Shown here piece after piece: positions 1,106 to 47,542 of a DNA stretch of 64,000 bases. How positions within the stretch are numbered: the first letter of the stretch is position 1; the number at the start of each line of letters is the position of its first letter. Source of the DNA: Treponema rectale (GTDB taxonomy: Bacteria > Spirochaetota > Spirochaetia > Treponematales > Treponemataceae); contig NZ_JACHFR010000003.1 in the NCBI RefSeq assembly GCF_014202035.1, forward strand, positions 311,223 through 375,222. Reading direction: 5' to 3'. Made by a program: the position numbers and the translations under genes. Below the pieces are notes generated by a model. That model was not told the DNA's origin. It searched no databases and saw only the letters and a list, made by a program, of their open reading frames with translations.

Positions 1106-1705
1106 TCAATGAAAAGTATTTTTCGTGATTCTTAAAATCAGCCGGTAAACTGCATAGCAGATTACGGCACTGATGATTTTATCAACAAGATTTGTTAGAG
1201 TTCCGCCGATGTATGCTGCGACATTCAGATTGCGGATAACCACATAAATTCCCTGAACTGCGTTATCAACCTGAGGAATTGAGGTGTTTGCTTTATAAAA
1301 AAGTGCGCTTATTGTGTCTCCCAGAATTGAGTTTGAAAGAGATGCAAAGAAGCCCGCCCACATAAAGCTGGAAGAGGAAAGCAGTCTTACATTAGGAGGA
1401 TTGTTTCTTTCTGCACGGAAAACAAAATATGCAATTACGGCTGTAGAAATGTGGCACGTCATAAAAAGGATTCCTGTGTTTGCAAAAATGTATAAAAGCA
1501 GGTTTGAAAAGAAGGCGCAGATAAGCCCAGGCACAAGCCCGCACAAGGCAGTTACTGCAATGGTCATCACGGAATCAAGATAGAGGGGAAATGCAATCAG
1601 GCCTGCAAGAACTGAACCCAAATAATTTATTCCGATTGAAGAGACAGTAAAGAGGACGATGAAAATTATTTGGGAAACAGAAGAACAGGATTTTTTATTT
1701 GTCAT
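1106..1705 (-). CDS. Polytopic membrane protein (~6 TM, 199 aa), paralog A of a TCS-associated family
   Basis: Hydrophobic helices throughout. Paralogous to 13759..14349 and 21123..21743 (shared PLYLDSVMTIAV / DKIISAVICYAVY-type motifs). Overlaps the response-regulator gene by 11 nt. Confidence 0.6.
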   Translation of the reverse strand: MTNKKSCSSVSQIIFIVLFTVSSIGINYLGSVLAGLIAFPLYLDSVMTIAVTALCGLVPGLICAFFSNLLLYIFANTGILFMTCHISTAVIAYFVFRAERNNPPNVRLLSSSSFMWAGFFASLSNSILGDTISALFYKANTSIPQVDNAVQGIYVVIRNLNVAAYIGGTLTNLVDKIISAVICYAVYRLILRITKNTFH

Positions 1706-2408
1706 AGATTAGTCCCAGAAGCTTTGCTTTTTCCAGTAAATCGTGCCGGTCTTTTATATCCAGCTTTGAGTAAACCGCCGTCCGCTGATTGATTACAGTT
1801 TTCTCTGACTTACCGAGTTTTCTTGCAATGTCGATGATTTCCATATTTTGAGACAGCAGGATGAAAATTTCCCGCTCCTTGGCAGAGAGTTCTTTGTAAT
1901 TGTCAAAAAGATAGCTCAAATCATTGGTAATGTCGTGGGCACGGCCTTTGTTTGTCAGGAGCGACTGCATTATTTCTGTTGCCGCCTTGTTGTAATAGGA
2001 ATTGCCTTTTGAAATCGTGGTGATTGCGAGCGCAACTTCATCAATTGTGGCATCTTTTGTAACGTAGCCTTGAACACCGTTAAGCAGGACATTTTGAACA
2101 TGAAGCACGTCATTAAACATCGTATAAATCATGATGGAAATAGAGGAGTTAATTTTTTTGATTTCAGGAATTATTTCCAGTCCGCTTTTTCCGTCAAGAT
2201 TCAAATCAAGAATTGCAATCAGAAAGTCAGGATTATTCTTTAATGCTTCAAGGGCAGTTTCGTAATCGCTTGCACAGACAAAATCAAAATCCGGATTTTT
2301 GCTTTTCAGCATCTCTTTCATTCCGTCCCGCAGTCCTACATGATCATCTACAAACAGAATCTTTAATTGTGATTGCAATTGTTGTTCCTCCTTCATGAAT
2401 AAAATCAA
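1695..2408 (-). CDS. Response regulator, NarL/LuxR family (REC + LuxR-type HTH)
   Basis: KILFVDDH and LDLNLDG receiver motifs; C-terminal LSAKEREIFILLSQNMEIIDIARKLGKSEKTVINQRTAVYSKL HTH. Confidence 0.8.
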   Translation of the reverse strand: MILFMKEEQQLQSQLKILFVDDHVGLRDGMKEMLKSKNPDFDFVCASDYETALEALKNNPDFLIAILDLNLDGKSGLEIIPEIKKINSSISIMIYTMFNDVLHVQNVLLNGVQGYVTKDATIDEVALAITTISKGNSYYNKAATEIMQSLLTNKGRAHDITNDLSYLFDNYKELSAKEREIFILLSQNMEIIDIARKLGKSEKTVINQRTAVYSKLDIKDRHDLLEKAKLLGLIYDK

Positions 2409-3420
2409 CCGTACCGCTCAAAAGTTCAACGCGTTCCTTAATGTTTGAAACTCCGTAATGCTGGCGTCCGCCCCTGGAATTTTTCTCTGTTACTTCTTCT
2501 TCGCTAAAGCCTTTTCCGTCATCTTTTATGATGAATTTAAAATCGTCGATGCCGTCTACAAAACGGATTTCCACATTGCTGGCATTTGCGTGGCGCGAAA
2601 TATTGGAAAGGGCCTCCTGCAAAATTCGTATCAGCTCAACCTGAATATTTTCGTTGAGATTCTGAATCTTTGTGGAGCCGACATAAACCTTTGTAGAAAT
2701 ATTATAGTTGGTTTCAAGAGTCGCCGCCATCTTTCTTACGATTTCTTCAAAACTCTGATTCAAATCCAGGTGCGTTGCTCCAATCATATAACGCACTTCG
2801 TTAAAAGCCTGCTGGGCGTAAAACTTTGATTTTGAAAGGTCTTCTTTTTCAAGATAGAGCTTTAAGGCGGCAAGATCCTGGGCAACTCCGTCGTGAAGGT
2901 TGCGGCTGATTTTAGACTGTTCCTCGTTCATCACCTTGAGCCGCTGAAAATCAATTTTGTTTTTAAAATATTTTTCTGCAATCAAATAGACTGCAATGAC
3001 AATCAGAATCAGAGAGCAGTATAGAAGGGAATCATAGCCAAAGTTAAGGCGGCTTTCTGTCTGGTGCATGTGATTCTGGAAAGTGACGATTGGTTCAATC
3101 ATGCTTTTGTTTTCGCCCAGAAGGGTAAGAATTTGAGAAAGTTCGGCCTTAAGTTCGTAATCAAAATAGGTGAAAGGCTTGTAATCATATTCCAGTTTTT
3201 GAATCAGATTCTGATGATTAAAAATGCCGCTGTTTTCTTCCAGCTGAATCTTAAGCATCTGGGAATTCAGATTGGCAATCTTTTTATTTGTGTAGGTTTT
3301 GCAGCCGATGGAAAATCCAAAGTTCAGAACTGCAATATAAATGAAAATAAACTCAATTTTAAAGAGGGCCTTTATTTTAAATCCAGAGCCTGCCGCTTGC
3401 TTTTTATCCATGTCTGTCAT
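2344..3420 (-). CDS. Sensor histidine kinase, HisKA_3 (NarX/LiaS-like); two TM helices flank a ~90-aa external loop
   Basis: LHDGVAQDL H-box; HATPase_c C-terminus. Start chosen at MTDMDKK; the ORF is open to 3555. The 3' end overlaps the response-regulator start. Confidence 0.7.
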   Translation of the reverse strand: MTDMDKKQAAGSGFKIKALFKIEFIFIYIAVLNFGFSIGCKTYTNKKIANLNSQMLKIQLEENSGIFNHQNLIQKLEYDYKPFTYFDYELKAELSQILTLLGENKSMIEPIVTFQNHMHQTESRLNFGYDSLLYCSLILIVIAVYLIAEKYFKNKIDFQRLKVMNEEQSKISRNLHDGVAQDLAALKLYLEKEDLSKSKFYAQQAFNEVRYMIGATHLDLNQSFEEIVRKMAATLETNYNISTKVYVGSTKIQNLNENIQVELIRILQEALSNISRHANASNVEIRFVDGIDDFKFIIKDDGKGFSEEEVTEKNSRGGRQHYGVSNIKERVELLSGTVDFIHEGGTTIAITIKDSVCR

Positions 3421-12403: not shown

Positions 12404-12928
12404 CTAAGCTTCTCCCTTAATTTTCCTTTTCCAAAATTGCCAGATGGTAATAAGCTCGCCGGCAAGGTTCCATCGTTTTTGTTCCTGCATGTTTTCCCAG
12501 GCTTTAATGCCGTATTCGTAGAAGTTATCGTCATTTTTTATGGCGGCAGAAACGATTAAGTCTATGTCGCTTTTAGAAAGAAGACCGTCAAAGGCGGCGC
12601 ACCATTTCTGGTAGACACGGCAGGGGTTTGCGTTGTCAAAGGCGTAGAAGCCGGGCAGGCGGTAAATGGGGCACATTTTTGAAATGCCTAAGTTCGCCGC
12701 AAACTTTGTAAAGAGCTGCTGATACCACTTTACTCCGTAGCGGCCGCCAAAAAGCCCGTTATCCTTCTGTTTTTTTTCTATTTTTCTCTGTGTCTGGTAT
12801 ATTTTTTCTGCAAGCTGGCATTGATATTCATCTTCCGGGTCTGCGGAAATCGTGAAAAATTCTATTCGGGCGAGTAAGATACAATTTTTAAGGCTTTCCT
12901 CGTATTTCTTCGGGCGGTTCTTTTTCAT
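12404..12928 (-). CDS. Hypothetical protein (174 aa)
   Basis: ORF lying between the ATPase and the histidine kinase, co-oriented. Confidence 0.45.
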   Translation of the reverse strand: MKKNRPKKYEESLKNCILLARIEFFTISADPEDEYQCQLAEKIYQTQRKIEKKQKDNGLFGGRYGVKWYQQLFTKFAANLGISKMCPIYRLPGFYAFDNANPCRVYQKWCAAFDGLLSKSDIDLIVSAAIKNDDNFYEYGIKAWENMQEQKRWNLAGELITIWQFWKRKIKGEA

Positions 12929-12940
12929 TGACCCTCCGCT

Positions 12941-13762
12941 TTACTGCTGGGGAATCTCCAGCCGCACTTCCGTTCCTGTGTCAGGGGAGCTGTTTACGGT
13001 AAGAGTGCCGTCCAGAAGTTTCGCACGCATTTCCATACCGCTTATGCCAAAGTGAGATGAAGCGTCAGTCGGTGGTAGCTGGTTTGTAGAATCGAAGCCC
13101 TGACCGTCATCAAAAATCATAATGCGAATCACTCCGCTAGATTTCTGTTGCCCGCTTATCCGTCTGATTACAACACTAGTCTCTTCTGCCTTTGCGTGGG
13201 CCCGGACATTGTTCAAGGCTTCCTGAATAATGCGCAGAATATGGTGCTTTTGTTCGGTGGTGAAGGTGTCTAAAGAAAGGTCGGGTGCAACAAAAAATTT
13301 GCAAGGGATTTCGCTTTGGGCGTAAAACTGCTCGCATAAATCATTGATGACAGTCTTAAAGGGAATGCTTGCAAGAGCGGGAACTGCAAGATTCTGAATT
13401 ATTGCACGCAGCTCCTTCTGGTTTTTCTTTTCCAGGCTGATGATTTTTTCAAATTCAGAAAGCAGATTTGCGTCCGTGCAGCGGTCTTTGAGTTCCTTTT
13501 GGGAAAGCAGCAGGGCTTTTATGTTCTGGCTTACCGTATCGTGCAACTCCTGACTGATTCTGCGGCGTTCTTCTTCCTGTATGCCTATTGTTTCTTCAAT
13601 AAATTGCCGGTTGTCCTTAAGTTTTTTGCGGGATTTAATGTTGTGAATCAAAATCACCATAAGGATGATAAAGGCTGCAAAGGTAAGAACAACAAGAAAG
13701 ATAAAAAACGAGGTGTACAAACTGAGGGCGGATGTTAAATCCTGCAAATCAAGCTCGGTCAT
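12941..13762 (-). CDS. Sensor histidine kinase, HisKA_3 type, single N-terminal TM with no external sensor domain
   Basis: LHDTVSQNI H-box; HATPase_c C-terminus. Start ATG overlaps the stop of the upstream membrane-protein gene (ATGA). Confidence 0.75.
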   Translation of the reverse strand: MTELDLQDLTSALSLYTSFFIFLVVLTFAAFIILMVILIHNIKSRKKLKDNRQFIEETIGIQEEERRRISQELHDTVSQNIKALLLSQKELKDRCTDANLLSEFEKIISLEKKNQKELRAIIQNLAVPALASIPFKTVINDLCEQFYAQSEIPCKFFVAPDLSLDTFTTEQKHHILRIIQEALNNVRAHAKAEETSVVIRRISGQQKSSGVIRIMIFDDGQGFDSTNQLPPTDASSHFGISGMEMRAKLLDGTLTVNSSPDTGTEVRLEIPQQ

Positions 13763-14349
13763 TTGCGCAATCCCGAATAAATGCCGTAAGCGGCAAAAGT
13801 ACAGATAAAGCGGTCTAAAAGCGTGATGGGAATGCGGGGCAAAAGATAAGACAGAAATACGCTGAAATTCATTTTTTGAAATATTAAGGAAATGTCGTCG
13901 ATTGCCGAAAAGCCCGATGCTTTTTTAAAAAGCGGGCGGATAAAGGTGTCCAGTGCGCTTGCAGAAAATGAACTTAGAAAGGTTGAGAAGAAAACGATTA
14001 TCAGAAGGTAAAGAAGCGTAACGCGGCGGTTAAAATGAAACTCCTTTTTGTTGCGGCTGAAAAGCCAGCTGGCTATTACAATCAGGATTCCGCAGATTCC
14101 GTACAAAAAATCATACAGGAAGATTTCGCTGCCGGTCATTGCGCAGCGCAGGATTGTCATAATCGGGTTAAAAAGAGCGGCAACGATAATTCCTGGAATA
14201 AGGCCTGCATAAAAAGTAATTGCCACGGTAAAAATTGTGTCTAAAAAGGCCGGGAGTTTGAGGGCTGAGGCCAGCATTGCGCTTGCAATGTTCAATAGAA
14301 GGGCAAGGAGACATAAAAGTCCTGTGAATGCAATCTTTTTGGATTTCAT
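13759..14349 (-). CDS. Polytopic membrane protein (196 aa), paralog B of the TCS-associated family
   Basis: Paralogous to 1106..1705 and 21123..21743. Translationally coupled (ATGA overlaps) to both the response regulator and the kinase. Confidence 0.65.
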   Translation of the reverse strand: MKSKKIAFTGLLCLLALLLNIASAMLASALKLPAFLDTIFTVAITFYAGLIPGIIVAALFNPIMTILRCAMTGSEIFLYDFLYGICGILIVIASWLFSRNKKEFHFNRRVTLLYLLIIVFFSTFLSSFSASALDTFIRPLFKKASGFSAIDDISLIFQKMNFSVFLSYLLPRIPITLLDRFICTFAAYGIYSGLRK

Positions 14350-14996
14350 AATCTTCCCATTTTTTCAAGAAACTGGAGTTTATTTTCTACTCCTGCCTTA
14401 TCATATAAAATTGTCAGGTAATTTACGACAGTTTTTTCTGCAATTCCAAGGGCGGCGGCAACTTCGGCATTTGTGTTGTGGATGGTCAGTGTATCGGCAA
14501 CAAGCTTTTCCTTTTTAGTGAAGGTCTGGGTGATGTCGCGCACTTCCAGAAGCCCGGTTACAAGCTCAGCCTGAATATATGTTCCGCCATTTGCCACCGA
14601 GTTGATTGCCGCAAGCAGAATGGCTTCATCCGCTGTTTTTGAAACAAAGCCTTTTGCTCCCACAGCAGGACTTGTTGCGTGTTCAACAAAGCCGCCCGAA
14701 TCGTGGCTGGAATAGGCAATGCATGGAATCCCCAGAGCTGAAAATTCTTTGATGATGTCAAAACCGGAATTTTCCATCTGAGAATCTGCAGTCTTAAATG
14801 AAATATCAACGACCGCAAGAAATTCGTCAGCCTTAAGGCTTCCTTTTTCAAACTGATTCTGGATTTCCTTACAGTCTTTAACGTTACTTGCCTGAAATTC
14901 AACCTTATAATCCGAATGATTTTCTATCCAGTTTTTAATTCCGTTCAGTAGGAGTGCGTGATCATCAACAATAATTATGTTTTTTCTCATAAGCAT
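14346..14996 (-). CDS. Response regulator, NarL/LuxR family
   Basis: IIIVDDH receiver motif; C-terminal LuxR-type HTH (EKLVADTL...AEKTVVNYLTILYDK). Confidence 0.8.
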   Translation of the reverse strand: MLMRKNIIIVDDHALLLNGIKNWIENHSDYKVEFQASNVKDCKEIQNQFEKGSLKADEFLAVVDISFKTADSQMENSGFDIIKEFSALGIPCIAYSSHDSGGFVEHATSPAVGAKGFVSKTADEAILLAAINSVANGGTYIQAELVTGLLEVRDITQTFTKKEKLVADTLTIHNTNAEVAAALGIAEKTVVNYLTILYDKAGVENKLQFLEKMGRL

Positions 14997-18238: not shown

Positions 18239-19777
18239 TTAGTTAAAAACCCTGATACAACAAACGTTTCCTGGATAGTTACATACATAAAGCGGCAGCA
18301 AAGCATCTTTCATATTATCCTCTTTAAAGATGATATATTGTCCGTTATTAATACTACTTGGCGTTGATGATAAGTAAGCAGCTTCATATGTATCATCTAC
18401 TGCCATCGCATCATCTTCAAGACTTTTTCCAGTACATAATTTACAGGCTTCATTTACAGTAGACTTCTGTGTCCAAATATCATAAAGTTCTGCCAAAGAC
18501 GGTAAATACCATCCGTCTTCAAAATCTGTGTTTTTAACATGACTGCCTTCTTTATCTTTGTAATTAATTGCAAATTCAAATGCCGGATAGTGTGTTAAAT
18601 CGTCTGTGTCGTCCTCTGTTTTGTCATTTTCTTCAAGAAAAGCTTTAATTTCCGCAAGATTATCACTTCCATCAGTGTCACCAGTAAATGTTTCTGTTTT
18701 AGAATCAAAATCACACATTATAGATTCAACTTCATACTGTTCACCCATACCGGCCTTTATAACGATTTTCGATAAACGATTATACAATAGTAAACCATCC
18801 TTATTCTGCAAGATTCCAACACCGTACGCTTTAGAAACATCAGCCTTATAAATAATGGCAATTGAGTTTTCTTTCTGCTCGTCGGTAAGTGTAAGGCCCG
18901 AGGTATAAGGTGTGGCAGAGCCATCTGCAAATACAATGTCGCCAACTGCTTTTTGTGCATCCGGTTTTTTTGTTCCTGCAAACCATTTTGCAGTAATCTC
19001 TAAAGTTCCTGTAATTGGTGTTGTAAAGTCAAATTCAGTATCTCCGACAAACCAGCCTTTGAAAGCGCTTCCTTCTTTTGTCGGGTCAGCTGGTCTTTCA
19101 ACTTTATTTCCATGGTTGACAGTCTTGGTTTCTGCTGTGCTTCCGTTTTTTGAATCGAAAGTTACAGTATGAGTTACGACATTTGTTGCCCATTTTGCAT
19201 AAAGGGTAATGTCCTTTGTAATGGCTGTGTCAAAATCAAAGGCTGTATCAGAGAGTGTTGTGCCTTCGTCTTCTGAAGTGTACCAGTTTTCAAAGGTGTA
19301 AGTTTCTGTTTCTGTAGCCTGCTTTGTAGGGTCAGCGGGTTTTGTGACCTTTTTTCCGTGGACGATTGTCTGTTCCGCAGGAGACGTGCTTCCGCCTTTT
19401 GTGTCAAAAGTCACAGTGTGGGTAACTGCATTGACCGCCCATTTTGCATAAAGAGTAATGTCTTTTGTGATTGGAGTATTAAAGTCAAAGGCTGTATCAG
19501 AAAGTGTCGTGCCGTTGTCCGTTGATGTGTACCAGTTTTCAAAAGCGTATGTTTCAGTAGCGACAGCCTGTTTTGTTGGATTAGCCGGCTTTGTGGCCTT
19601 CTTTCCGCTTTCAACCTTCTGGCTTTTAACCTCTGTTCCGCCATTTGAATTGAAGCTTACGGTGTAATATACAGGTGGCTGTGATGTGTCATCATCATCA
19701 TCTGCCTTACATGAAGCAAAGGCAAATCCCAGCCCCATAGCCGCAAGCAAAAGAAGGTACCTCGCTAGTTTTTTCAT
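18239..19777 (-). CDS. Surface lipoprotein with three Listeria-Bacteroides-type (InlB B-repeat-like) ~80-aa repeats
   Basis: Lipobox LGFAFASC after a start at MKKLARYLL with GGAG RBS. Three ~250-bp tandem DNA repeats produce nested spurious ORFs on both strands. Paralog of 35651..37450. Confidence 0.7.
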   Translation of the reverse strand: MKKLARYLLLLAAMGLGFAFASCKADDDDDTSQPPVYYTVSFNSNGGTEVKSQKVESGKKATKPANPTKQAVATETYAFENWYTSTDNGTTLSDTAFDFNTPITKDITLYAKWAVNAVTHTVTFDTKGGSTSPAEQTIVHGKKVTKPADPTKQATETETYTFENWYTSEDEGTTLSDTAFDFDTAITKDITLYAKWATNVVTHTVTFDSKNGSTAETKTVNHGNKVERPADPTKEGSAFKGWFVGDTEFDFTTPITGTLEITAKWFAGTKKPDAQKAVGDIVFADGSATPYTSGLTLTDEQKENSIAIIYKADVSKAYGVGILQNKDGLLLYNRLSKIVIKAGMGEQYEVESIMCDFDSKTETFTGDTDGSDNLAEIKAFLEENDKTEDDTDDLTHYPAFEFAINYKDKEGSHVKNTDFEDGWYLPSLAELYDIWTQKSTVNEACKLCTGKSLEDDAMAVDDTYEAAYLSSTPSSINNGQYIIFKEDNMKDALLPLYVCNYPGNVCCIRVFN

Positions 19778-19930
19778 ATATGAATCTCCTTTAAAAATAA
19801 TAATAGTCTTATTATAAAAACCAGTTTTTTCCTGTAAACAGAGAAAACTCATCGAAATTCAGTGAGTTTTCTCACTTTTTTAGGTGATGAGGGGGTGGGT
19901 ATGTTGTTTGACCCCCTAATTAAAATTGAC

Positions 19931-19974: not shown

Positions 19975-20238
19975 ATGACTACAATTTCTGCAAAAATCGA
20001 AAATGAAGACAAAAGTCTTTTTGAAAGCATCATAAACTCAATAGGATTGAATGTTACATCTGCAATTACAGCGTTCGTAAAGGCAACAATCCGAGAAAAT
20101 GGAATTCCTTTTGCATTAAAAGCTGCCGATGACCCCTATATCTATTCAGAAGAAAACATGAAATACCTTCGTCAAGGAATCGCTCAAATAGAATCAGGAA
20201 AAGGCCAGGTCCATGAATTAAAGGAGGAGCTTTTATGA
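19975..20238 (+). CDS. RelB/DinJ-family antitoxin
   Basis: DinJ-like RHH motif. Stop overlaps the toxin start (ATGA). Confidence 0.7.
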   Translation: MTTISAKIENEDKSLFESIINSIGLNVTSAITAFVKATIRENGIPFALKAADDPYIYSEENMKYLRQGIAQIESGKGQVHELKEELL

Positions 20239-20507
20239 TAAAAGTTTGGGCTGATGTTGCATGGGATGGTTACTGTCAACTCTTCGAACTCAATCAAAAA
20301 AAGTTGATAAAAATGGTGCATGAACTTATAAAAGACATAGAACGCAATGGTCTTGATAAAGGTCGTGGACAGCCAGAGCCGTTAAAATATGAGCTTACCG
20401 GTTATTGGAGTCGAAGAATCGATTCAGCAAATCGGCTAGTCTATAAAGTGGAGGGTGATAAATTGTACATAGTTCAGTGTGGTACTCATTATCACCAAGA
20501 AAAATAA
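20235..20507 (+). CDS. yoeB: YoeB/Txe-family toxin (RelE superfamily mRNA interferase)
   Basis: KVWADVAWDGY...GRGQPEPLKYELTGYWSRRID..NRLVYKVEGDKLYIVQCGTHY matches the YoeB consensus. Confidence 0.8.
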   Translation: MIKVWADVAWDGYCQLFELNQKKLIKMVHELIKDIERNGLDKGRGQPEPLKYELTGYWSRRIDSANRLVYKVEGDKLYIVQCGTHYHQEK

Positions 20508-20560: not shown

Positions 20561-21163
20561 ATGATTGAGATTATCAGTGTTGACGACCACGAAATGATTA
20601 GCCTGGGCCTGGAGCGGGTATTTTCACAGACAAAAGACATACGGGTCTGCCACTTCTGCAAGACAAAAGCAGAACTTGTGCCCTTTATCGAGTCAAAGTC
20701 TCCCGAAGAACTAAAAAACATGCTCGCCATGCTGGACATCAAGCTTGAAGAAGGAAGCGGCTTTGAGGTGGCCGATTTTCTGCTTGAAAAGGGCGTTAAG
20801 TGCCTTATGTACTCTTCTTTTTCAAATGCGGGCTATATCATAAAAACCATGGAGCACAAAATCACAGGCTTCATCACCAAAAATGCCCAGCAGCCGGAAA
20901 TCCTAGAGGCGGTTCATGCCGTTTTCTCAGGCGAAACCTACATTCAGAAAAATCTCCTTCCCGACATGATGTTCGTAAGCGGCATTCTTGTCACCCTCAC
21001 CAAAAAAGAGCGGGAACTGGTAGATTTAATGAGCGAGCACCTTTCCAACGAAGAACTGGCCCAGCGCCTGGCAGTCTCCAAGCGCACCATAGAAAACTAC
21101 GTCTCCCGCATTTTCGACAAGTTTAATGTAAAGAACCGCTACGAGCTGGAAAGATATTTGTAA
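20561..21163 (+). CDS. Response regulator, NarL/LuxR family (REC with atypical N-terminus + LuxR HTH)
   Basis: C-terminal LTKKERELVDLMSEHLSNEELAQRLAVSKRTIENYVSRIFDKF. Confidence 0.75.
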   Translation: MIEIISVDDHEMISLGLERVFSQTKDIRVCHFCKTKAELVPFIESKSPEELKNMLAMLDIKLEEGSGFEVADFLLEKGVKCLMYSSFSNAGYIIKTMEHKITGFITKNAQQPEILEAVHAVFSGETYIQKNLLPDMMFVSGILVTLTKKERELVDLMSEHLSNEELAQRLAVSKRTIENYVSRIFDKFNVKNRYELERYL

Positions 21164-21743
21164 GCAAAAATACTCCCCAGGCGGCAAAAACACAGATGAA
21201 GCGGTCGGCGATGTTCACGGGAATGCGCACGGCAATCTGCAAAAGGATCTTTGAGTGGAATTTGTTCTGCCACAAGAAGGTGAGGAAGTCGGTCTGGCTG
21301 CTGGCTTCGGTGTAGGCTTCGATATTGCTCAAAATGTAGCCGATGATTCCGCCAGATACGCTCATGACCAGCATCATTACAATGCTTAAGATTACAAGTT
21401 TTATAAAAGTTACGGCAGGCGTGTCGGTGTTTTTCATAAAATAGATTTTGTAGTAGCCGGCAGTCAGGGCCGCAAGAAAGTGACAGAGCATGAATATGTG
21501 CCCCAGTTCCAGCGTGCGGTTCAGGGCAAAATCAATCAGATGATAGAAAAATCCGGCCAGCACTCCCCACCAGGGGCCTACAAGAAAGCTGAGCGCCATA
21601 ATGAAAATCGTGTCGCAGAAAAGGGGCAGGTGGTTAGCCCAGGCCACAAGGTCGCAGATAATGTAATCCAAAAGGCCGCAGACAATGCTTAAGACAAAGA
21701 ATAAAAGCCTTTTCCGGCCCGCTGATTCAAAGTGAAGAGTCAT
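21123..21743 (-). CDS. Polytopic membrane protein (206 aa), paralog C of the TCS-associated family, inverted relative to its TCS
   Basis: Paralogous to 1106..1705 and 13759..14349 (LPLFCDTIFIMALSFLVG / DRFICVFAAWG). Its 3' end overlaps the convergent response-regulator 3' end by ~40 nt. Confidence 0.6.
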   Translation of the reverse strand: MTLHFESAGRKRLLFFVLSIVCGLLDYIICDLVAWANHLPLFCDTIFIMALSFLVGPWWGVLAGFFYHLIDFALNRTLELGHIFMLCHFLAALTAGYYKIYFMKNTDTPAVTFIKLVILSIVMMLVMSVSGGIIGYILSNIEAYTEASSQTDFLTFLWQNKFHSKILLQIAVRIPVNIADRFICVFAAWGVFLLTNIFPARSGSLH

Positions 21744-21828
21744 ACCCTAATTCTAGCATATTTCTTGAAATCCTGTCAGACCGGAGCGCAAAATTGAAAT
21801 TTTGGCATTTTCCAGCTATAGTAGACAG

Positions 21829-22893
21829 ATGAAACTTTTCGTAGTCCTCCTGTTCTCTCTTCTTTTTATTTTTCAGGCTTTTCCCCACGAGGCGAAAAAA
21901 CAGTCAGAAAATCTTACGCTTGAAGCCCTTACGCAAAAATGGCTTGAATATGAAGGCTCTGAGCAAGACAAGTCAGAAAAGCTTTTTGAAGAATTCTCTG
22001 TCGAAGTTGAAAAGGCAGCTCCCTCCGACACTATCGTTTACTATTTTCCGGAAGCGAAGGTCATCCACGAAAACATTCTTGAGGGAATAAAAGCCGGCGA
22101 CAGGGAGAAGATTTCCGACAATGTGCGAAGCTGGGAAATCCTTCAGAAAAATCTCGTGCGCTTTCAGCTCGACGAGGTTTATTATTCCTATAGAATCCTG
22201 ATTCTTGTAATCGTTCTTGCCCTGCTCATGTCGCTCATTTTCCTTGTCCTCTATCTTGTCACTTCCAAAAGCCGCAAGGAAAACCTTGCCTTTACAACCC
22301 GGATGATTCAGACTCAGGAAGCAGAGCGGGAGCGCATTTCCAACGAGCTTCACGACACGGTCTGCCAGGATTTGCGGGTCCTGCAGTTTCAGCTAAAAGA
22401 AGAAGAATCTATTACCCTCTGCCAGAAAATCGCTTCTGATGTGCGGAACTCCTGCTACGCCCTTACTCCATCCGACTTGAACGAAGGTCTTTACGAGGCC
22501 CTCGTCTCCCTCTGCGACATGCTGAAAAAACAGAGCGGGGTCGAAATCATCTTTTTTATTCAGGACGAAGTGAGAAAGAATCCGGACTTTATAAATTTCT
22601 CCAAGGACAAGAACCTGAACATTTACAGAATCGTGCAGGAAGTCCTCGGAAACGCCGTAAAGCACTCTGGAGCTGAAAGCGTGAGCCTGCTGGTCAGAAC
22701 GCTGGACGAAAAACATTTCAAGATTATCGTCTCCGATGACGGTGCGGGCTTTGACCTAAAAAGCGCCCTCAAAAAGAAAAAACATTTCGGCCTAAAAAAC
22801 ATCCAGAGCCGCACAAAAGGAATTGGCGGCAAGGTCGTTTTCAACTCTGCCCCCGGAGACGGCTGCCAGGTTACGGTGACTATTCCTTATTGA
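21829..22893 (+). CDS. Sensor histidine kinase, HisKA_3 type, with signal/TM segment, ~100-aa external domain and second TM
   Basis: LHDTVCQDL H-box; HATPase_c C-terminus. Start chosen at MKLFVV; the ORF is open from 21802 (TTG). Confidence 0.7.
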   Translation: MKLFVVLLFSLLFIFQAFPHEAKKQSENLTLEALTQKWLEYEGSEQDKSEKLFEEFSVEVEKAAPSDTIVYYFPEAKVIHENILEGIKAGDREKISDNVRSWEILQKNLVRFQLDEVYYSYRILILVIVLALLMSLIFLVLYLVTSKSRKENLAFTTRMIQTQEAERERISNELHDTVCQDLRVLQFQLKEEESITLCQKIASDVRNSCYALTPSDLNEGLYEALVSLCDMLKKQSGVEIIFFIQDEVRKNPDFINFSKDKNLNIYRIVQEVLGNAVKHSGAESVSLLVRTLDEKHFKIIVSDDGAGFDLKSALKKKKHFGLKNIQSRTKGIGGKVVFNSAPGDGCQVTVTIPY

Positions 22894-24980: not shown

Positions 24981-25017
24981 TATATCCTGACGCATGGTCA
25001 AAATCAAGGAGGTTCTT

Positions 25018-25890
25018 ATGAAGGACATCAAATCAATCTTACAAAATGCAGACTCAGTTCTCATCGGTGCCGGGGCAGGGCTTTCAACGTCCAGCGGTTT
25101 TACTTACAGCGGGCCTCGCTTTCAAAAATATTTTGCTGATTTTGAAAGGAAGTACGGTTTTCATGATATGTATTCCGGTGGCTTTACGGCTTTTGAAAGT
25201 CTTGAAGAAAACTGGGCCTACTGGAGCCGGCAGATTTATCTGAATCGTTTTGTAAAAGCTCCTTTGCCTGTCTATGAAAAACTTTTTGAGCTTGTGAAGG
25301 AAAAAAACTATTTTGTCCTTACGACCAATGTTGACCACTGCTTTCAGAAGGCCGGTTTTGATAAATCAAGGCTCTTCTACACTCAGGGTGATTACGGACT
25401 CTGGCAGTGTTCTGAAGCATGTCACAAGAAAACTTACGACAATCAAGCTACGGTTGAAAATATGCTTTTGGCCCAGGGCTTTGTAATTCAAAGTGATGGC
25501 AGTCTTGAACTACCGGAAAATGGCTTTGAAGGAATCAAAATGACTGTTCCGTCAGAACTGGTTCCCCGCTGTCCTGCTTGCGGAAAGCCCATGACAATGA
25601 ACCTGCGCTGTGACGATACTTTTGTGGAAGATGATGGCTGGCACTCTGCGGCATTACGCTATGAGGATTTTCTGAATAAGAACAAAGACGGTCGTATTGT
25701 TTTTCTGGAGCTTGGTGTTGGCGGTAATACTCCTGGAATCATCAAATATCCTTTCTGGAAGATGACTTATGCTAATCCAAAAGCAAAATACATCTGCATA
25801 AACAAGGGTGAAGCAGTAGTTCCGAAAGAAATTGAAAATCAGAGTATTTGCGTGAATAATGATATTTATGAGGTTTTAAAAAGCTTATGA
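25018..25890 (+). CDS. SIR2-like protein (sirtuin fold: GAGAG NAD-binding loop, TTNVD motif, CxxxC...CxxC zinc knuckle; no obvious catalytic HG)
   Basis: LIGAGAGLSTSSGF, VLTTNVDHCFQKAGF, WQCSEACHK...PRCPACGKPM. Strong AAGGAGG RBS before the ATG at 25018. Its stop overlaps the next gene's start. Confidence 0.7.
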   Translation: MKDIKSILQNADSVLIGAGAGLSTSSGFTYSGPRFQKYFADFERKYGFHDMYSGGFTAFESLEENWAYWSRQIYLNRFVKAPLPVYEKLFELVKEKNYFVLTTNVDHCFQKAGFDKSRLFYTQGDYGLWQCSEACHKKTYDNQATVENMLLAQGFVIQSDGSLELPENGFEGIKMTVPSELVPRCPACGKPMTMNLRCDDTFVEDDGWHSAALRYEDFLNKNKDGRIVFLELGVGGNTPGIIKYPFWKMTYANPKAKYICINKGEAVVPKEIENQSICVNNDIYEVLKSL

Positions 25891-26792
25891 CACAGGCAGA
25901 ACGCAGATTATATTTGATAACAGAACTCCTAAAAGAAGATAAGGGAAGTGCAGGCTTTAATCTGGGTCTTGTGCCAGGAAATGAAGGCGGCTTTGTGATT
26001 CCTGATGATGAAAAAAGTCAGCGAGATATACTGAGGGCTTTGATGAATATTCGTGGTCCATATTCCATTAGCGAAGACTTTTTGAGAATACAGGATGAGT
26101 ACCTGCAGCAGGTTAATAAAGAGCGGGGGATTACGGATATTGAAGACTTGGAATGTGTAAAAGAGATTGTCGGGGCAAGCCCGACAATGACACAAGTTGC
26201 AAGTCCGTCAACGACAAAGGATGTCATTCCCGTGCTTGACACGGGAATCTCAAAGAAACTTTATCTCTGGCAGGGTGACATCACTACGCTAAAAGTTGAT
26301 GCAATTGTTAATGCTGCAAACTCTGCCCTGCTAGGCTGCTTTGCGCCGCTTCACATCTGTATAGACAACTGTATCCACACCTATGCAGGTATTCAGCTGC
26401 GGCTTGCCTGTAACGAGCTGATGCAAAAACAGGGACACGAAGAAGAAAACGGACTTTGTAAAATCACCCCGGCCTTTAATCTTCCAAGCCGTTATGTTTT
26501 GCACACTGTCGGCCCCATTATTTACACAAGTGCAGGGCCTCGCGAAAAGTTTCTGCTTGCAAACTGCTACAAAAACTGCCTTGAAACTGCGGCACAAAAT
26601 CAGCTTGAATCGGTTGCCTTCTGCTGTATTTCTACCGGAGTCTTCAGATTCCCTCAGGACCTTGCTGCTCAGATTGCAGTTGCGACGGTAGAAAAGTGGC
26701 TTTCAGAAAATCCAGATTCCAGCGTGAAGAAGATTGTCTTTAATGTCTTTGGAAATAAGGATCTGGAGATTTATCAGGGGCTTTTACTTTAG
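25887..26792 (+). CDS. Macro-domain protein (MacroD-type ADP-ribose hydrolase fold) with a ~120-aa unknown N-terminal extension
   Basis: LYLWQGDITTLKVDAIVNAANSALLG...ITPAFNLPSRYVLHTVGP matches the macro consensus. Cys/His-rich insertion CFAPLHICIDNCIH. Confidence 0.75.
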   Translation: MTQAERRLYLITELLKEDKGSAGFNLGLVPGNEGGFVIPDDEKSQRDILRALMNIRGPYSISEDFLRIQDEYLQQVNKERGITDIEDLECVKEIVGASPTMTQVASPSTTKDVIPVLDTGISKKLYLWQGDITTLKVDAIVNAANSALLGCFAPLHICIDNCIHTYAGIQLRLACNELMQKQGHEEENGLCKITPAFNLPSRYVLHTVGPIIYTSAGPREKFLLANCYKNCLETAAQNQLESVAFCCISTGVFRFPQDLAAQIAVATVEKWLSENPDSSVKKIVFNVFGNKDLEIYQGLLL

Positions 26793-28402: not shown

Positions 28403-28595
28403 ATTTTCTCCTTTGACAGGCCGCTTGTGGCCTGTGTTTTTAGTTAGGTTTTCATAGTTTATGACTTGAATATAAGCCTCCCATATTTTCAAAATGTTTA
28501 CTAAATGTTGCTGAAATATTAAAAATTTGAATTTTGAAAGAAATTCTCGTTCATTTTTGTGAAATTTCGGGGTGGGGCGTGTTATAATTTTTTTT

Positions 28596-29273
28596 ATGAT
28601 TAAGATTCTGGTTGTCGAAGATGATGCGGGGTTAAATATGACCGTTTGTGCTTTTTTAAGGAAAAACGGGTATGATGTCATCGGCTGCATGCATGCAAAT
28701 GATGCCTATAACGCAATGTACAACACTCTCTTTGATTTAATAATTTCGGATGTGATGATGCCTCAGATTGATGGCTTCGAATTTGCCGAAACTGTAAGAA
28801 AAATCAATCAGACAATTCCAATTATTTTTATGACTGCACGAGATGATTTTACTTCAAAGCAGAAAGGCTTTGCTGCCGGCATAGATGATTATCTTGTTAA
28901 GCCTGTTGATTTAGATGAACTTCTCCTCCGTATTTCAGCCATTTTAAGAAGGGCAAAAATATCTCAAAGCAAAAAAGTGACAGTCGGCTCGTTGACGCTG
29001 GATGCAGATGCAGTTTCAGCTATTTCTGATGGAAAAGAAATCCAGCTTACAACCCGAGAGTTTAATCTGATTTATAAACTTCTTTCTTACCCAAACAAAA
29101 CCTTTACCAGAGTTCAGCTTATGGATGAATTTTGGGATGCAGATTCCAATGCAACTCCCCGTGCAATAGATGTTTATATTACAAAAATCCGCGAAAAGCT
29201 TTCTGAAGCCGGCTGCTCTGGTTTTGAAATTGCCACAGTACATGGACTTGGTTATAAGGCGGTTGTAAGATGA
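28596..29273 (+). CDS. Response regulator, OmpR/PhoB family
   Basis: KILVVEDD receiver; C-terminal trans_reg_C. Confidence 0.85.
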   Translation: MIKILVVEDDAGLNMTVCAFLRKNGYDVIGCMHANDAYNAMYNTLFDLIISDVMMPQIDGFEFAETVRKINQTIPIIFMTARDDFTSKQKGFAAGIDDYLVKPVDLDELLLRISAILRRAKISQSKKVTVGSLTLDADAVSAISDGKEIQLTTREFNLIYKLLSYPNKTFTRVQLMDEFWDADSNATPRAIDVYITKIREKLSEAGCSGFEIATVHGLGYKAVVR

Positions 29274-30310
29274 TAGAAGAATCTGAAAGAAAAAGCCGTT
29301 TCCCAATAGGTCTTTATTGGATAGTTCTTGGAATGCTACTTGGAACGGCCGGTATAAATATTGCCATCATCCTTTTGGGACTTAAATACAACTGGCAGGC
29401 TATCATTTTTGTTCATTTAGTCATCTTCTATTGGCTTCTTGTTTCTGCTCTGATTGTTCTATATATAAAGCATAAAATTCACAAAACCTACGAGATTCCC
29501 CTTCAGAAAATTTCAGAAGCTACAGAAAAAGTTTCAAAGGGAGATTTTTCAGTTTCGGTTCCAACAGTAAATCCTCCCGAAAAATATGATTATCTTGATT
29601 ATATGATTTTAGATTTAAACAAGATGATTGAAGATTTAAATGGCATTGAAACCCTTCGTACAGATTTTATTTCTAACGTTTCGCATGAACTAAAAACTCC
29701 TCTCGCAGTAATGCAAAATTATGCAAGACTTCTTCAAACTCCTGATTTGACGGAAGAAAACCGCCAGGAATACGCCAGGGCAATTTTTCATAATTCCCGG
29801 CAGCTTACATTACTTATAACAAATATCCTAAAATTGAATAAACTTGAAAATCAACAGATTTATCCAAAAGTTCCTCCTTATGATTTAGGAGAAGAGCTTC
29901 GGGAATGCCTTCTCACTTTTGAAGATTCCTGGACCGCAAAAAATCTGGAGCTGGAAGTTGAAATTGAAGATGGAATAATGACCACTACCGACAGTCAGCT
30001 TTTAAGCCTCATCTGGAATAATTTTATTTCAAACGCAATTAAGTTTACTCCCGAAAATGGAAAAATAATCGTACGTCTTCGCAAAATCGGGGAAGTGATA
30101 CAGGTGAGCGTTCAGGATTCTGGCTGCGGTATGGATGAAAAAACACTCAGCCACATTTTTGAAAAATTCTACCAGGGCGACACGAGTCACGCTACAAAAG
30201 GAAACGGACTTGGGCTTGCCTTAGCAGCAAGAGTTGCAGATATTTGCAGGGGAAAAATCCGCGTAGAAAGCAGTCCTGATAAAGGTTCTGTTTTTTACTT
30301 TGAATTTTAG
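29270..30310 (+). CDS. Sensor histidine kinase (EnvZ-like; two TM, HisKA FISNVSHELKTPL, HATPase_c)
   Basis: H-box and N/G1/G2 boxes (DSGCGMD, GNGLGLAL). Confidence 0.85.
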   Translation: MIEESERKSRFPIGLYWIVLGMLLGTAGINIAIILLGLKYNWQAIIFVHLVIFYWLLVSALIVLYIKHKIHKTYEIPLQKISEATEKVSKGDFSVSVPTVNPPEKYDYLDYMILDLNKMIEDLNGIETLRTDFISNVSHELKTPLAVMQNYARLLQTPDLTEENRQEYARAIFHNSRQLTLLITNILKLNKLENQQIYPKVPPYDLGEELRECLLTFEDSWTAKNLELEVEIEDGIMTTTDSQLLSLIWNNFISNAIKFTPENGKIIVRLRKIGEVIQVSVQDSGCGMDEKTLSHIFEKFYQGDTSHATKGNGLGLALAARVADICRGKIRVESSPDKGSVFYFEF

Positions 30311-35492: not shown

Positions 35493-35650
35493 GGCCCGAA
35501 ATTCTGGTATATTATTTTCCATATAATTGTATAAATCTTTAAAGATTATTAAAATATTCTTATAATCTTTGGAGAGAGAACACGACAATGCTGCTTACGG
35601 CATTTTTCGGGCTTTATGTTTTTAAATATCAACAAAAAGGAGTTTTTCGT

Positions 35651-46244: not shown

Positions 46245-47540
46245 ATGAAGCTTAACAGAATTTTTGGTGGAATAATTTTATTTACATTAACTTTTGTCTC
46301 TGTTGTATTCACCGGTTGTTCCGGTAAAGAAAAAAAGCATTCGGTTGAACTGACTTTCTTTTCCAATCTACCGGACAGGAATTTCGGCCAGGGGCTTGTA
46401 GAACAGCTCATAATTGATGAATTTATGGAAGAAAATCCTGATATTATAATTAAGCTTGAGACTCTTGATGAAACTGCATATAAAACTAAATTTCATGTTT
46501 ATTGTCATGAAAGGCTTCCGGATATTGTAAGTGTTTGGGGGCAGAGGGCTTTTCTTGAAGAGGCAGTCCTTGCAGGAAAATTAGAACCTCTTGATTCTGC
46601 TGATTTTAAAAACTTCGGATTTAAGGAAGGGACACTGGACGGTTTTACTTATGAGGGAGAACTGTACGGTCTTCCACGGAATACGGACGTAGCTCTCTTC
46701 TATTATAATGAAAGAATGTTCCGTGATTTCGGCTGGAAAGTTCCCCAGTCTTTTGATGAGCTGTTTGATGTTGCGGAAGAAATTCAGAATCACGATTTTG
46801 TTCCTGTCGGGATGGATGGAAGTGACGGCTGGCCGCTCATGATTTTCTTTTCTGATATTCTTTATGATATTTCAGGAAAAGATTACAGATATATAGTAGA
46901 TCATGCCATTGAAACCCATAATTTTTCTGATGAACGGATTCTTAAGGCGTTGAATCTTTTCTGTAAGGCCTGTTCGGGAAATCTTTTTCAGAAAAACTTT
47001 ACTCAGGATGATTATGGTGCTGCACAGAATTTCTTTCTGTCTGGAAAATCAGCCATGTATTACATGGGAAGCTGGGAAACTTCAATGGCAGTTAATACCA
47101 CTTACTGGAATGAAATTACACCATATATACGTGTGATAAAATTTCCTTCTATTAATAAGGATTCTCCTGGAAAATCCGGAGTACTTGCCTGGTATGGCGG
47201 CGGTTATGCAGTTTCTGCTGATTCCCTTCATAAAAAGGAAGCCGTAAAATTTTTAAAGTTTATGTTTGCTCCGGAACGACTGTCCCGTTTAGGATTAAAA
47301 AATGCGGTTGGAATTTCTGCACAGAATGAAAGTGACTTTCTTTACGAAACGGATGTACCTTGTCTCACGGAACTTGTAAGGATTGCCGAATCTGCAGATG
47401 ATTATTCAGGTTCTCCTCTTAATGACAGAGGTAATCTTGATTTTAAATATTTGTGTGAGGCAAACATTCTGCGTCTTGCTTCAGGACAGATAACGCCCGA
47501 AGAGTTTATAAAGCTTCTGGAACGAGAAGGGGCATACTGA
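46245..47540 (+). CDS. ABC transporter substrate-binding lipoprotein (sugar-binding, family 1)
   Basis: Lipobox FTGCSG; SBP_bac_1-like. No adjacent permease or ATPase genes. Confidence 0.75.
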   Translation: MKLNRIFGGIILFTLTFVSVVFTGCSGKEKKHSVELTFFSNLPDRNFGQGLVEQLIIDEFMEENPDIIIKLETLDETAYKTKFHVYCHERLPDIVSVWGQRAFLEEAVLAGKLEPLDSADFKNFGFKEGTLDGFTYEGELYGLPRNTDVALFYYNERMFRDFGWKVPQSFDELFDVAEEIQNHDFVPVGMDGSDGWPLMIFFSDILYDISGKDYRYIVDHAIETHNFSDERILKALNLFCKACSGNLFQKNFTQDDYGAAQNFFLSGKSAMYYMGSWETSMAVNTTYWNEITPYIRVIKFPSINKDSPGKSGVLAWYGGGYAVSADSLHKKEAVKFLKFMFAPERLSRLGLKNAVGISAQNESDFLYETDVPCLTELVRIAESADDYSGSPLNDRGNLDFKYLCEANILRLASGQITPEEFIKLLEREGAY

Positions 47541-47542
47541 TT

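What the first reader, a model, noticed from the sequence alone, without database searches (positions are those of the whole stretch)
12941..14996. Three paralogous three-gene modules: LuxR-type regulator + HisKA_3 kinase + a paralogous ~200-aa six-TM membrane protein
The same gene triplet occurs three times within 22 kb, at 1106-3420, 12941-14996 and 20561-22893. The membrane proteins (199, 196 and 206 aa) are clear paralogs of one another but match no partner family I recognise. They do not look like LiaF/VraT, which carry a C-terminal soluble domain. In the compact copy (RR-membrane-HK) all three genes are translationally coupled through ATGA overlaps. The kinase there has only one N-terminal TM and no sensor domain, so the membrane protein is the likely signal-perceiving or transporting partner. 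The helices read like a small transporter fold, possibly ECF S-component-like, but that is my speculation. A dedicated accessory membrane sensor for an intramembrane-sensing kinase, triplicated and diverged, would be an undescribed signalling cassette.
Basis: partly seen in the sequence, partly recalled or inferred. Interest (0 to 1): 0.7.

Follow-up and report, generated by a model that had tools for sequence, protein, structure and literature searches.

The report
Transporter-fold membrane partner of Treponema kinases
A gut Treponema genome carries three diverged copies of a signalling cassette in which a histidine kinase and its regulator are always encoded with a small membrane protein that has the fold of a vitamin-transporter subunit. 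This protein probably serves as a detachable sensor for the kinase, an arrangement not described before.

Summary
Three triplets lie within 22 kb, each with a LuxR/GerE response regulator, a HisKA_3 kinase and a ~200-aa membrane protein (M). In the middle copy the genes are joined by ATGA overlaps. The three M proteins are distant paralogs (25-29% identity).

The family has about 950 clusters at 50% identity, and every named member is from Treponema or Spirochaetaceae. About 40 of 46 dereplicated M genes sit next to a HisKA_3 kinase and/or GerE regulator, in at least five gene orders. One natural M-kinase fusion exists. The kinases paired with the middle subfamily always have one transmembrane helix and no sensor domain.

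Best reading (about 0.55): M binds a ligand and signals to the kinase within the membrane, like a split version of the 5TMR/LytS-type kinases. The main rival is a transporter regulated by the two-component system. I found no paper describing this. It is a new variant of a known kind, and the function is untested.

The parts
14346..14996 (-). RR_B: NarL/LuxR-type response regulator, first gene of the compact module
   Evidence: Pfam Response_reg 8.6e-9 and GerE 1.5e-8. Its stop overlaps the M_B start in ATGA.
13759..14349 (-). M_B: 196-aa membrane protein with the ECF S-component fold and no soluble domain
12941..13762 (-). HK_B: 273-aa HisKA_3 kinase with one transmembrane helix, a short acidic outside tail and no sensor domain
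   Evidence: Pfam HisKA_3 1.2e-9 and HATPase_c 3.6e-10. There is a single hydrophobic segment at 21-39. The start overlaps the M_B stop in ATGA. The same architecture is seen in all partners of this subfamily.
12404..12928 (-). 174-aa ORF 12 nt downstream of HK_B on the same strand; possibly a fourth operon gene in this lineage only
   Evidence: No Pfam hit. Homologs are found in only 5 closely related loci. Not part of the conserved core.
2344..3420 (-). HK_A: HisKA_3 kinase with two hydrophobic segments flanking a ~100-aa extracytoplasmic domain (ORF extends to 3555; likely ATG at 3420)
   Evidence: Pfam HATPase_c 6.4e-12 and HisKA_3 1.4e-4. Hydrophobic segments at 59-77 and 175-193 of the long ORF. 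Its N-terminal domain is homologous to the N-terminus of the M-fusion protein P0228 (29% identity, E 3e-11).
1695..2408 (-). RR_A: NarL/LuxR-type response regulator
   Evidence: Pfam Response_reg 9.7e-17 and GerE 2.9e-8. It overlaps both neighbouring genes.
1106..1705 (-). M_A: 199-aa paralog of M_B, last gene of module A
   Evidence: 25% identity to M_B, E 2e-11. PF12822 scores 23.7 bits (cut-off 30.7) and NF045596 has E 2.5e-10, below its cut-off.
20561..21163 (+). RR_C: NarL/LuxR-type response regulator
   Evidence: Pfam GerE 4.6e-13 and Response_reg 3.5e-10. Its 3' end overlaps the 3' end of M_C by 41 nt.
21123..21743 (-). M_C: 206-aa paralog, encoded antisense between RR_C and HK_C
   Evidence: 26% identity to M_B, E 1e-13. 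PF12822 scores 29.9 bits against a cut-off of 30.7, and 5TMR_LYT has E 2.2e-4. Orthologs are annotated 'ECF transporter S component' and keep the same antisense position.
21802..22893 (+). HK_C: HisKA_3 kinase with a signal-like N-terminal helix, a ~100-aa extracytoplasmic domain and a second transmembrane helix (likely ATG at 21829)
   Evidence: Pfam HATPase_c 5.2e-11 and HisKA_3 3.9e-5. Hydrophobic segments at 10-28 and 132-150. Orthologs start MKKITVF....

Best explanation
Each module is a three-component signalling system. M is a six-helix membrane protein with the ECF S-component fold. It has lost, or never had, the motif needed to dock an ECF ATPase motor. It works instead as a separate ligand-binding sensor subunit.

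Proposed mechanism:
- A small molecule binds in the cavity that opens to the outside. The cavity is lined by the invariant D37/T38 (loop 1 and start of helix 2) and P174/D179/R180 (start of helix 6).
- The resulting conformational change passes within the membrane to the partner HisKA_3 kinase. In module B that kinase is only a single transmembrane anchor with a conserved juxtamembrane motif.
- This sets the kinase/phosphatase balance and hence phosphorylation of the LuxR/GerE regulator.

In effect this is a split version of the 5TMR (LytS/BtsS/YpdA-type) kinases, where the same fold is fused to the kinase. It is also analogous to transporter co-sensors such as BceAB-BceS or DctA-DctB.

Shown here: the fold, the gene linkage, the kinase architecture and one fusion protein.

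Inferred: physical contact, ligand binding, and the direction of signalling. The ligand and the regulon are unknown.

For: 2. Not a motor-docking S-component. There is no conserved AxxxA motif in helix 1 in any of 31 family members. The motif's role is described in PMC11109136.

3. Linkage. Of 46 M gene clusters (at 90% identity), about 40 lie within 1.5 kb of a HisKA_3 kinase and/or GerE regulator. The gene orders seen are RR-M-HK, M-HK-RR, HK-RR-M, HK(-)M(+)RR(-) and M<->HK-RR. The linkage also holds in three distant subfamilies, each under 30% identical to the three window proteins: L075 (next to an HK-RR hybrid), L076 (T. pectinovorum) and L077 (HK-M-MM).

4. Translational coupling by ATGA overlaps on both sides of M_B.

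5. A natural fusion. P0131 (540 aa) is M + 2 transmembrane helices + HisKA_3 + HATPase_c. It occurs on a contig found in 2 samples.

6. All about 45 kinases paired with the M_B subfamily have one transmembrane helix, no sensor domain, and a conserved L..[YH].[ST]FF motif at the outer end of that helix.

7. Domain swap. The periplasmic sensor module of HK_A is found fused to an M_A-like domain in P0195 and P0228.

8. Precedent. The same fold serves as the sensor in 5TMR kinases (PMC11109136).
Against: - No direct evidence of M-kinase contact.
- Four clear orphan M genes exist: L018, L031, L037 and L058.
- M_A orthologs in a very abundant pig-gut Treponema stay intact although the kinase is gone and the regulator is truncated.
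- P0228 has no two-component system nearby. So M can be kept without a kinase.
- Kinases A and C have their own periplasmic domains, so M need not be the only sensor there.
- M_C is on the opposite strand, which fits a regulated target as well as a partner.
- The fusion P0131 is a single cluster on a 2.4-kb contig and could be a lost stop codon.
- The positions of the conserved residues in the pocket are inferred from topology, not measured on coordinates.
Confidence: 0.55

Rival explanations
1. M is a solitary S-component-type transporter, like BtuM or some BioY proteins that work without an ECF module. The adjacent two-component system merely regulates it, or senses flux through it. On this view M is the target or a 'trigger transporter', not a dedicated sensor.
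For: The S-component fold. Intact M genes without any kinase in L018, L031, L037, L058, L063 and L067-69. M_C is transcribed from its own strand, with an 85-bp region shared with the kinase start. Solitary S-components are known (PMC11109136).
Against: M_B sits between the regulator and the kinase with 4-nt overlaps, which implies stoichiometric co-expression. The kinase of that module has nothing else to sense with. A covalent M-kinase fusion exists. Regulated targets rarely stay adjacent through five different gene orders.
Confidence: 0.25
2. M is a ligand-independent modulator or scaffold of the kinase, in the manner of LiaF/VraT (inhibitor/activator) or of MreD (an S-component-fold scaffold). 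It would respond to envelope or membrane state rather than binding a small molecule.
Against: The invariant charged or polar residues (D37, T38, N61, D179, R180) lie in membrane-embedded or outer-leaflet positions typical of a binding pocket (the placement is inferred). S-components score twice as high as MreD. The family has diversified into hundreds of clusters, with three or more paralogs per genome. That pattern suggests different ligands rather than one membrane-state signal.
Confidence: 0.12
3. M is an ordinary group-II ECF S-component that docks onto an EcfAA'T module encoded elsewhere in the genome. Its position beside a two-component system is only regulatory.
For: NCBI annotates M_C orthologs as 'ECF transporter S component', with precomputed PF12822 hits. 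There are sub-threshold PF12822 and NF045596 hits. Group-II S-component genes are normally unlinked to ecfAA'T (established knowledge).
Against: No AxxxA docking motif. No EcfA/EcfT-type gene among the window ORFs scanned or in any gene table of the fetched loci. All three window proteins score below every curated cut-off. A riboflavin-transporter survey found RfuABCD but not RibU in Spirochaetes (PMC4418817).
Confidence: 0.06

Closest known systems
5TMR-LYT sensor kinases (LytS, BtsS, YpdA, KinB; PF07694), as analysed by Partipilo & Slotboom 2024 (PMC11109136)
   Same: An S-component-fold membrane domain without the AxxxA docking motif is used for sensing and coupled to a histidine kinase. 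M_C gives a weak 5TMR_LYT hit (E 2.2e-4).
   Different: In the window the fold is a separate ~200-aa polypeptide, not fused. There is no N-terminal H0 helix on M. An LPxFLDT motif takes the place of NxR between helices 1 and 2. The kinase is HisKA_3 with a NarL/GerE regulator, not His_kinase (PF06580) with LytTR. The family is confined to Treponema and Spirochaetaceae as far as members are named.
ECF transporter S-components (RibU, ThiT, FolT, BioY, PanT, CbiM; PF12822 and relatives)
   Different: No AxxxA motif. Below the Pfam and NCBIfam cut-offs. No ECF module seen nearby. The genes are embedded in two-component operons. 8-17% identity to solved S-components.
LiaFSR / VraTSR three-component systems
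   Same: A HisKA_3 kinase with little or no sensor domain, a NarL/GerE regulator, and an accessory membrane protein encoded in the same operon.
   Different: LiaF and VraT have a C-terminal soluble domain and a different fold. M is all-membrane with the S-component fold. Those systems are found in Firmicutes.
Transporter co-sensor systems (BceAB-BceS, DctA-DctB, DcuB-DcuS)
   Same: A kinase that cannot sense on its own relies on a transporter-type membrane protein encoded next to it.
   Different: The partners there are ABC or secondary transporters with proven transport activity. Here the partner is an S-component-fold protein with no known motor and no shown transport.
Solitary S-components (BtuM, some BioY)
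   Different: Those are vitamin importers with no link to kinases. M is linked to a two-component system in about 87% of dereplicated loci.

Membership tests
ECF transporter S-component (functional class) | Six-helix S-component fold | tested here: met
ECF transporter S-component (functional class) | Sequence membership: PF12822 ECF_trnsprt at or above the gathering score (30.7 bits) | tested here: not met
   M_B has no hit. M_A scores 23.7 bits and M_C 29.9 bits. M_C is borderline, and many M_C and some M_A orthologs carry a precomputed PF12822 hit.
ECF transporter S-component (functional class) | AxxxA motif in helix 1 that docks the S-component on EcfT | tested here: not met
   None of the three window proteins has it. 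In 31 aligned members only sporadic, non-aligned occurrences are seen. The role of the motif is taken from PMC11109136.
ECF transporter S-component (functional class) | An EcfA/EcfA'/EcfT module in the genome that associates with the protein | not testable with these tools
   No such gene among the scanned window ORFs or in the gene tables of the fetched loci.
CD3073 family putative ECF S component (NCBIfam NF045596) | Score at or above the curated cut-off of 180 bits | tested here: not met
   Scores are 29.7, 40.3 and 20.6 bits for M_B, M_A and M_C.
5TMR-LYT sensor kinases (PF07694) | S-component-like membrane domain covalently fused to cytoplasmic signalling domains | tested here: not met
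   M and the kinase are separate ORFs in all three window modules. One relative, P0131, is fused.
5TMR-LYT sensor kinases (PF07694) | Extra N-terminal helix H0 and an NxR motif between helices 1 and 2; PF07694 at or above 24.6 bits | tested here: not met
   The model has no H0. The loop-1 motif is LPxFLDT. The best PF07694 score is 21.3 bits, for M_C.
LiaFSR/VraTSR-type three-component system | HisKA_3 kinase plus NarL/GerE regulator, with an accessory membrane protein gene in the operon | tested here: met
   Pfam domains. Overlapping genes. Conserved linkage.
LiaFSR/VraTSR-type three-component system | Accessory protein of the LiaF/VraT family (transmembrane helices plus a C-terminal soluble domain) | tested here: not met
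   M is helical membrane protein from end to end, with no soluble domain. Pfam and NCBIfam give no LiaF-type hit.
Bce-type transporter/kinase sensory complexes | ABC transporter (BceAB-like permease with a large extracellular loop) next to an intramembrane-sensing kinase | tested here: not met
   No ABC genes flank the modules in the window or in the related loci. The partner is an S-component-fold protein.
MreD | Closest structural match to MreD, and an mreBCD gene context | tested here: not met

The most novel reading that the evidence does not exclude
The M family is a Treponema-specific radiation of detachable 'transceptor' subunits: S-component-fold proteins that have given up transport and serve as interchangeable ligand-binding sensor modules for minimal HisKA_3 kinases. 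This would be the free-standing intermediate between ECF S-components and 5TMR kinases that Partipilo & Slotboom postulated. It would also be the first case of an S-component-fold protein signalling to a kinase in trans.
Probability: 0.5. Interest if true: 0.75.

Novelty: new variant of a known kind. Interest (0 to 1): 0.6.

Why it matters
Two-component systems with helper membrane proteins are known. The S-component fold has recently been recognised as the hidden sensor domain of LytS/BtsS-type kinases. No case is described in which that fold is a separate protein paired with a kinase.

If M signals in trans, three things follow.

- It offers a natural split system for studying how an S-component-type conformational change (toppling or gating) becomes a kinase signal. 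That is hard to study in the fused 5TMR kinases, for which no experimentally determined structure existed as of that 2024 paper.
- It provides a plausible evolutionary intermediate between transporters and receptors.
- It is a large, wholly uncharacterised sensory repertoire in gut, rumen, oral and termite Treponema: about 950 clusters at 50% identity, with three or more paralogs per genome. The ligands could reveal what these hard-to-grow spirochaetes monitor in their hosts.

It also flags an annotation problem. Some members are currently named 'ECF transporter S component' without the docking motif.

Tried and rejected
- **Sequence search of the M family profile against all PDB sequences.** It gave only noise (SMG9, E 0.8). 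The fold had to be found by structure comparison.
- **AFDB50 fold search.** The library was not available.
- **Complex prediction.** I built 26 paired M + (G4S)6 linker + kinase N-terminus sequences from the fetched loci. The tool returns neither coordinates nor PAE, so an interface could not have been read anyway. I therefore did not spend the last structure job on the natural fusion P0131.
- **Statistical coupling or mirror-tree analysis on about 45 pairs.** Rejected as uninformative, because co-located genes share phylogeny.
- **LiaF/VraT, MreD, CD3073 and 5TMR-LYT membership.** Each was tested and not met (see membership test).
- **P0090 (M joined to the end of an ATPase domain) and P0118 (regulator joined to mid-M).** I dismissed these as internally deleted or chimeric sequences from short contigs, not real fusions.
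- **Search for a conserved regulon.** Clustering all neighbours gave only LRR_5 surface-protein genes (15 of 78 loci) and DUF4143-type ATPases (9 loci). Both are probably just abundant in Treponema, so no target gene can be named.
- **Promoter and terminator scan around module B.** It found no more sites than in shuffled sequence.
- **Peptide or bacteriocin genes near the modules.** None were seen.
- **Whether Treponema has an ECF module.** The literature only shows RfuABCD rather than RibU in Spirochaetes.
Full report
**What is in the window**

The three triplets exist as described.
- Module B is on the minus strand: regulator 14346-14996, membrane protein M_B 13759-14349, kinase 12941-13762.
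- Module A is on the minus strand: kinase 2344-3420 (ORF to 3555), regulator 1695-2408, M_A 1106-1705.
- Module C: regulator 20561-21163 (+), M_C 21123-21743 (-), kinase 21802-22893 (+).

Pfam assigns Response_reg+GerE to the three regulators and HisKA_3+HATPase_c to the three kinases. The two ATGA overlaps in module B are read directly from the sequence.

The three M proteins are real but distant paralogs. They share 25-29% identity, with BLASTP E 2e-11, 1e-13 and 3e-8.

Kinase B has one hydrophobic segment and its H-box begins near residue 64, so it has no sensor domain. Kinases A and C each have two hydrophobic segments around a ~100-aa extracytoplasmic stretch.

Module B DNA is 89-94% identical to Treponema porcinum, T. 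zioleckii and related metagenome-assembled genomes. The window therefore comes from a gut or rumen Treponema of that group.

**What the membrane protein is**

By sequence it is nearly invisible.
- M_B has no Pfam hit.
- M_A and M_C give sub-threshold hits to PF12822 (ECF transporter S component): 23.7 and 29.9 bits against a cut-off of 30.7.
- M_C gives a weak hit to the 5TMR-LYT sensor domain (E 2.2e-4).
- NCBIfam gives only far-sub-threshold hits to the CD3073 putative S-component family.
- A family profile finds nothing among PDB sequences.

**Is it a working ECF S-component?**

According to Partipilo & Slotboom 2024 (PMC11109136), three groups share this fold: S-components, MreD, and the membrane domains of 5TMR (LytS/BtsS/YpdA) kinases. 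What separates transporters from the others is an AxxxA motif in helix 1 that docks on EcfT. None of the three window proteins has that motif. In 31 aligned relatives it appears only sporadically and out of register.

No EcfA- or EcfT-type gene was found among the window ORFs I scanned or in any gene table of the related loci. I could not search whole genomes, so an ECF module elsewhere is not excluded.

The family instead conserves two motifs. The first is an LPxFLDTIFTVAxTFYxGLxPG block running from loop 1 into helices 2 and 3. The second is PRIPxTxLDR at the outer start of helix 6. D37 and D179 are invariant, and T38, N61 and R180 nearly so. By topology these residues lie where S-components bind their substrates. 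This placement is inferred, since I had no coordinates.

**Is the link to the two-component system real?**

Yes, and it is the strongest result.

A scan of one genome per species found 55 loci of the M_B subfamily, all in Treponema, Spirochaetaceae or Spirochaetia. Searching all fetched loci with kinase, regulator and M queries gave 46 M clusters after dereplication at 90% identity. About 40 of these lie within 1.5 kb of a HisKA_3 kinase and/or GerE regulator. Four are clear orphans with at least 2.5 kb of flank on both sides.

The gene order changes with divergence:
- RR-M-HK in relatives at least 49% identical to M_B.
- M-HK-RR in relatives 37-45% identical.
- M divergent from HK-RR in termite-gut Treponema.
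- HK-RR-M in module A.
- An antisense 'sandwich', HK(-) M(+) RR(-), in module C. T. succinifaciens and other species keep this order exactly.

An exhaustive HMMER search found about 950 family clusters at 50% identity (271 at E<=1e-10). Almost all are stand-alone ~200-aa proteins. I sampled three of these subfamilies, each less than about 30% identical to any window copy. Each again sits by a kinase: next to an HK-RR hybrid (L075), convergent with HK and RR in T. pectinovorum (L076), and as HK-M-(M-M) in L077. Linkage that survives this much rearrangement indicates a functional unit.

**Evidence that M is a partner rather than a target**

- In module B, M is translationally coupled on both sides, between the regulator and the kinase.
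- All about 45 kinases paired with the M_B subfamily have the same minimal build. They have a short acidic outside tail, one transmembrane helix and then the catalytic core. A conserved L..[YH].[ST]FF motif sits at the outer end of the helix. These kinases have nothing of their own to sense with.
- A natural fusion exists. P0131 (540 aa) is an M domain (31% identical to M_B, E 1.6e-22), followed by two further transmembrane helices, then HisKA_3 and HATPase_c. It lies on a contig seen in two samples. The two extra helices make the topology consistent.
- The periplasmic two-helix sensor module of kinase A (residues 62-200) is homologous to the N-terminus of P0195 and P0228 (29% identity, E 3e-11). 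There it is fused to an M_A-like domain (42% identical to M_A) instead of a kinase. The same sensor module can thus be attached to either protein.

**Evidence that keeps the transporter reading alive**

- Four orphan M genes exist. Two of them lie beside fatty-acid synthesis genes, a gene identity I judged by reading the ORF translations.
- P0228 has no two-component system nearby and lies next to GDT1 and SulP transporter genes.
- In a very abundant pig-gut Treponema, the M_A ortholog is intact. The kinase has been replaced and the regulator truncated by an EcoRI-methylase/GmrSD island.
- Kinases A and C have their own periplasmic domains.
- M_C is transcribed from the opposite strand.
- The fusion is a single cluster on a short contig.
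- I could not test physical contact.

**Most likely mechanism**

M binds a small ligand from outside and modulates the kinase through intramembrane contact with its single helix. This makes it a split analogue of the 5TMR kinases and a functional analogue of BceAB-BceS or DctA-DctB co-sensing (confidence about 0.55).

Rivals:
- A solitary S-component-type transporter regulated by the two-component system, possibly flux-sensing (0.25).
- A ligand-independent LiaF- or MreD-like modulator of envelope or membrane state (0.12).
- A canonical group-II S-component using a distant ECF module (0.06).

The ligand and the regulon are unknown. Neighbour clustering gave only LRR_5 surface-protein genes (15 of 78 loci) and DUF4143-type ATPases. 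Both are probably just common in these genomes.

**Comparison with what is known**

It works like a LiaFSR/VraTSR-type three-component system: a HisKA_3 kinase, a NarL-type regulator and an accessory membrane protein. The accessory protein is not LiaF-like, however.

It shares its fold and the loss of AxxxA with 5TMR kinases. But it is a separate polypeptide, lacks H0 and the NxR motif, and is paired with a different kinase and regulator class. It has the fold of ECF S-components but fails the sequence cut-offs and the docking motif.

Four full-text searches found no description of a free-standing S-component-fold protein paired with a kinase. The Partipilo & Slotboom paper discusses only fused receptors, and names solitary S-components as hypothetical intermediates. 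Public annotation is either 'hypothetical protein' or, for M_C orthologs, 'ECF transporter S component'.

**Verdict**

I rate it a new variant of a known kind with interest 0.6. It is a specialist-level surprise, confined as far as named members go to Treponema and Spirochaetaceae. It offers a directly testable route to how the S-component fold signals.

Noticed in passing
window 38253-40226 (+): A single 657-aa ORF combines a Na/Pi cotransporter (PF02690, E 3.9e-55), PhoU domains and a C-terminal OmpR-type winged-helix DNA-binding domain (Trans_reg_C, E 1.8e-26). This is a membrane transporter fused directly to a transcription-factor output.
   Followed up: no
P0195, P0228; loci L063-L065: In these ~365-aa proteins the two-helix periplasmic sensor module of kinase A is fused to an M_A-like domain instead of a kinase. 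They have no two-component system nearby and lie next to GDT1 and SulP transporter genes.
   Followed up: partly
L067-L069 (orthologs of window 1106-1705): In a very abundant pig-gut Treponema (protein P0310, listed in 510 index blocks), the module-A kinase is gone and the regulator is cut down to its GerE end by an EcoRI-methylase + GmrSD island. The M gene stays intact.
   Followed up: partly
P0133, P0515; locus L077: Tandem M-M fusion proteins (~430 aa) exist. In L077 a kinase is followed by a single M and then an M-M fusion, giving three M domains behind one kinase.
   Followed up: partly
L037 and L058: Two of the four clear orphan M genes sit next to fatty-acid synthesis genes: FabF/FabG-like in L037 and FabV/FabZ/FabF-like in L058, judged by reading the translations. 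This is a possible hint toward a lipid-related ligand, or it may be coincidence.
   Followed up: no
window 20561-22893; L070-L073: Module C keeps M antisense between the regulator and the kinase. The M and regulator 3' ends overlap by 41 nt, and only about 60-85 bp separate the M and kinase starts. Reading from the regulator gene through to the kinase gene would run antisense across M. The arrangement is conserved in T. succinifaciens.
   Followed up: partly
window 19975-20507 (+): A RelB/YoeB toxin-antitoxin pair lies directly upstream of RR_C. RelB/YafQ-type pairs also lie near module-C orthologs in L070 and L073.
   Followed up: no
window 18239-19852 (-), 35588-37450 (+); L001, L003, L070-L073: Genes for surface-repeat proteins (Flg_new in the window, LRR_5 in related loci) recur beside the modules. 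LRR_5 genes are in 15 of 78 loci. They could be regulon members or simply abundant in Treponema.
   Followed up: partly
window 24994-26792 (+): A weak SIR2-like ORF (E 9e-4) overlaps by 4 nt a Macro-domain ORF (E 4e-35). This resembles known sirtuin-macrodomain operons.
   Followed up: no
window 28572-30310 and 46245-50075: There are two further two-component systems: an OmpR/HisKA pair, and a solute-binding protein + HAMP/His_kinase (YesM-like) + AraC-type regulator set beside glycoside hydrolases. That makes five systems in 50 kb.
   Followed up: no
window 12404-12928 (-): A 174-aa ORF with no family match lies 12 nt downstream of kinase B on the same strand. It is conserved only in the closest relatives (5 loci), so it may be a lineage-specific fourth gene of the operon.
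   Followed up: partly
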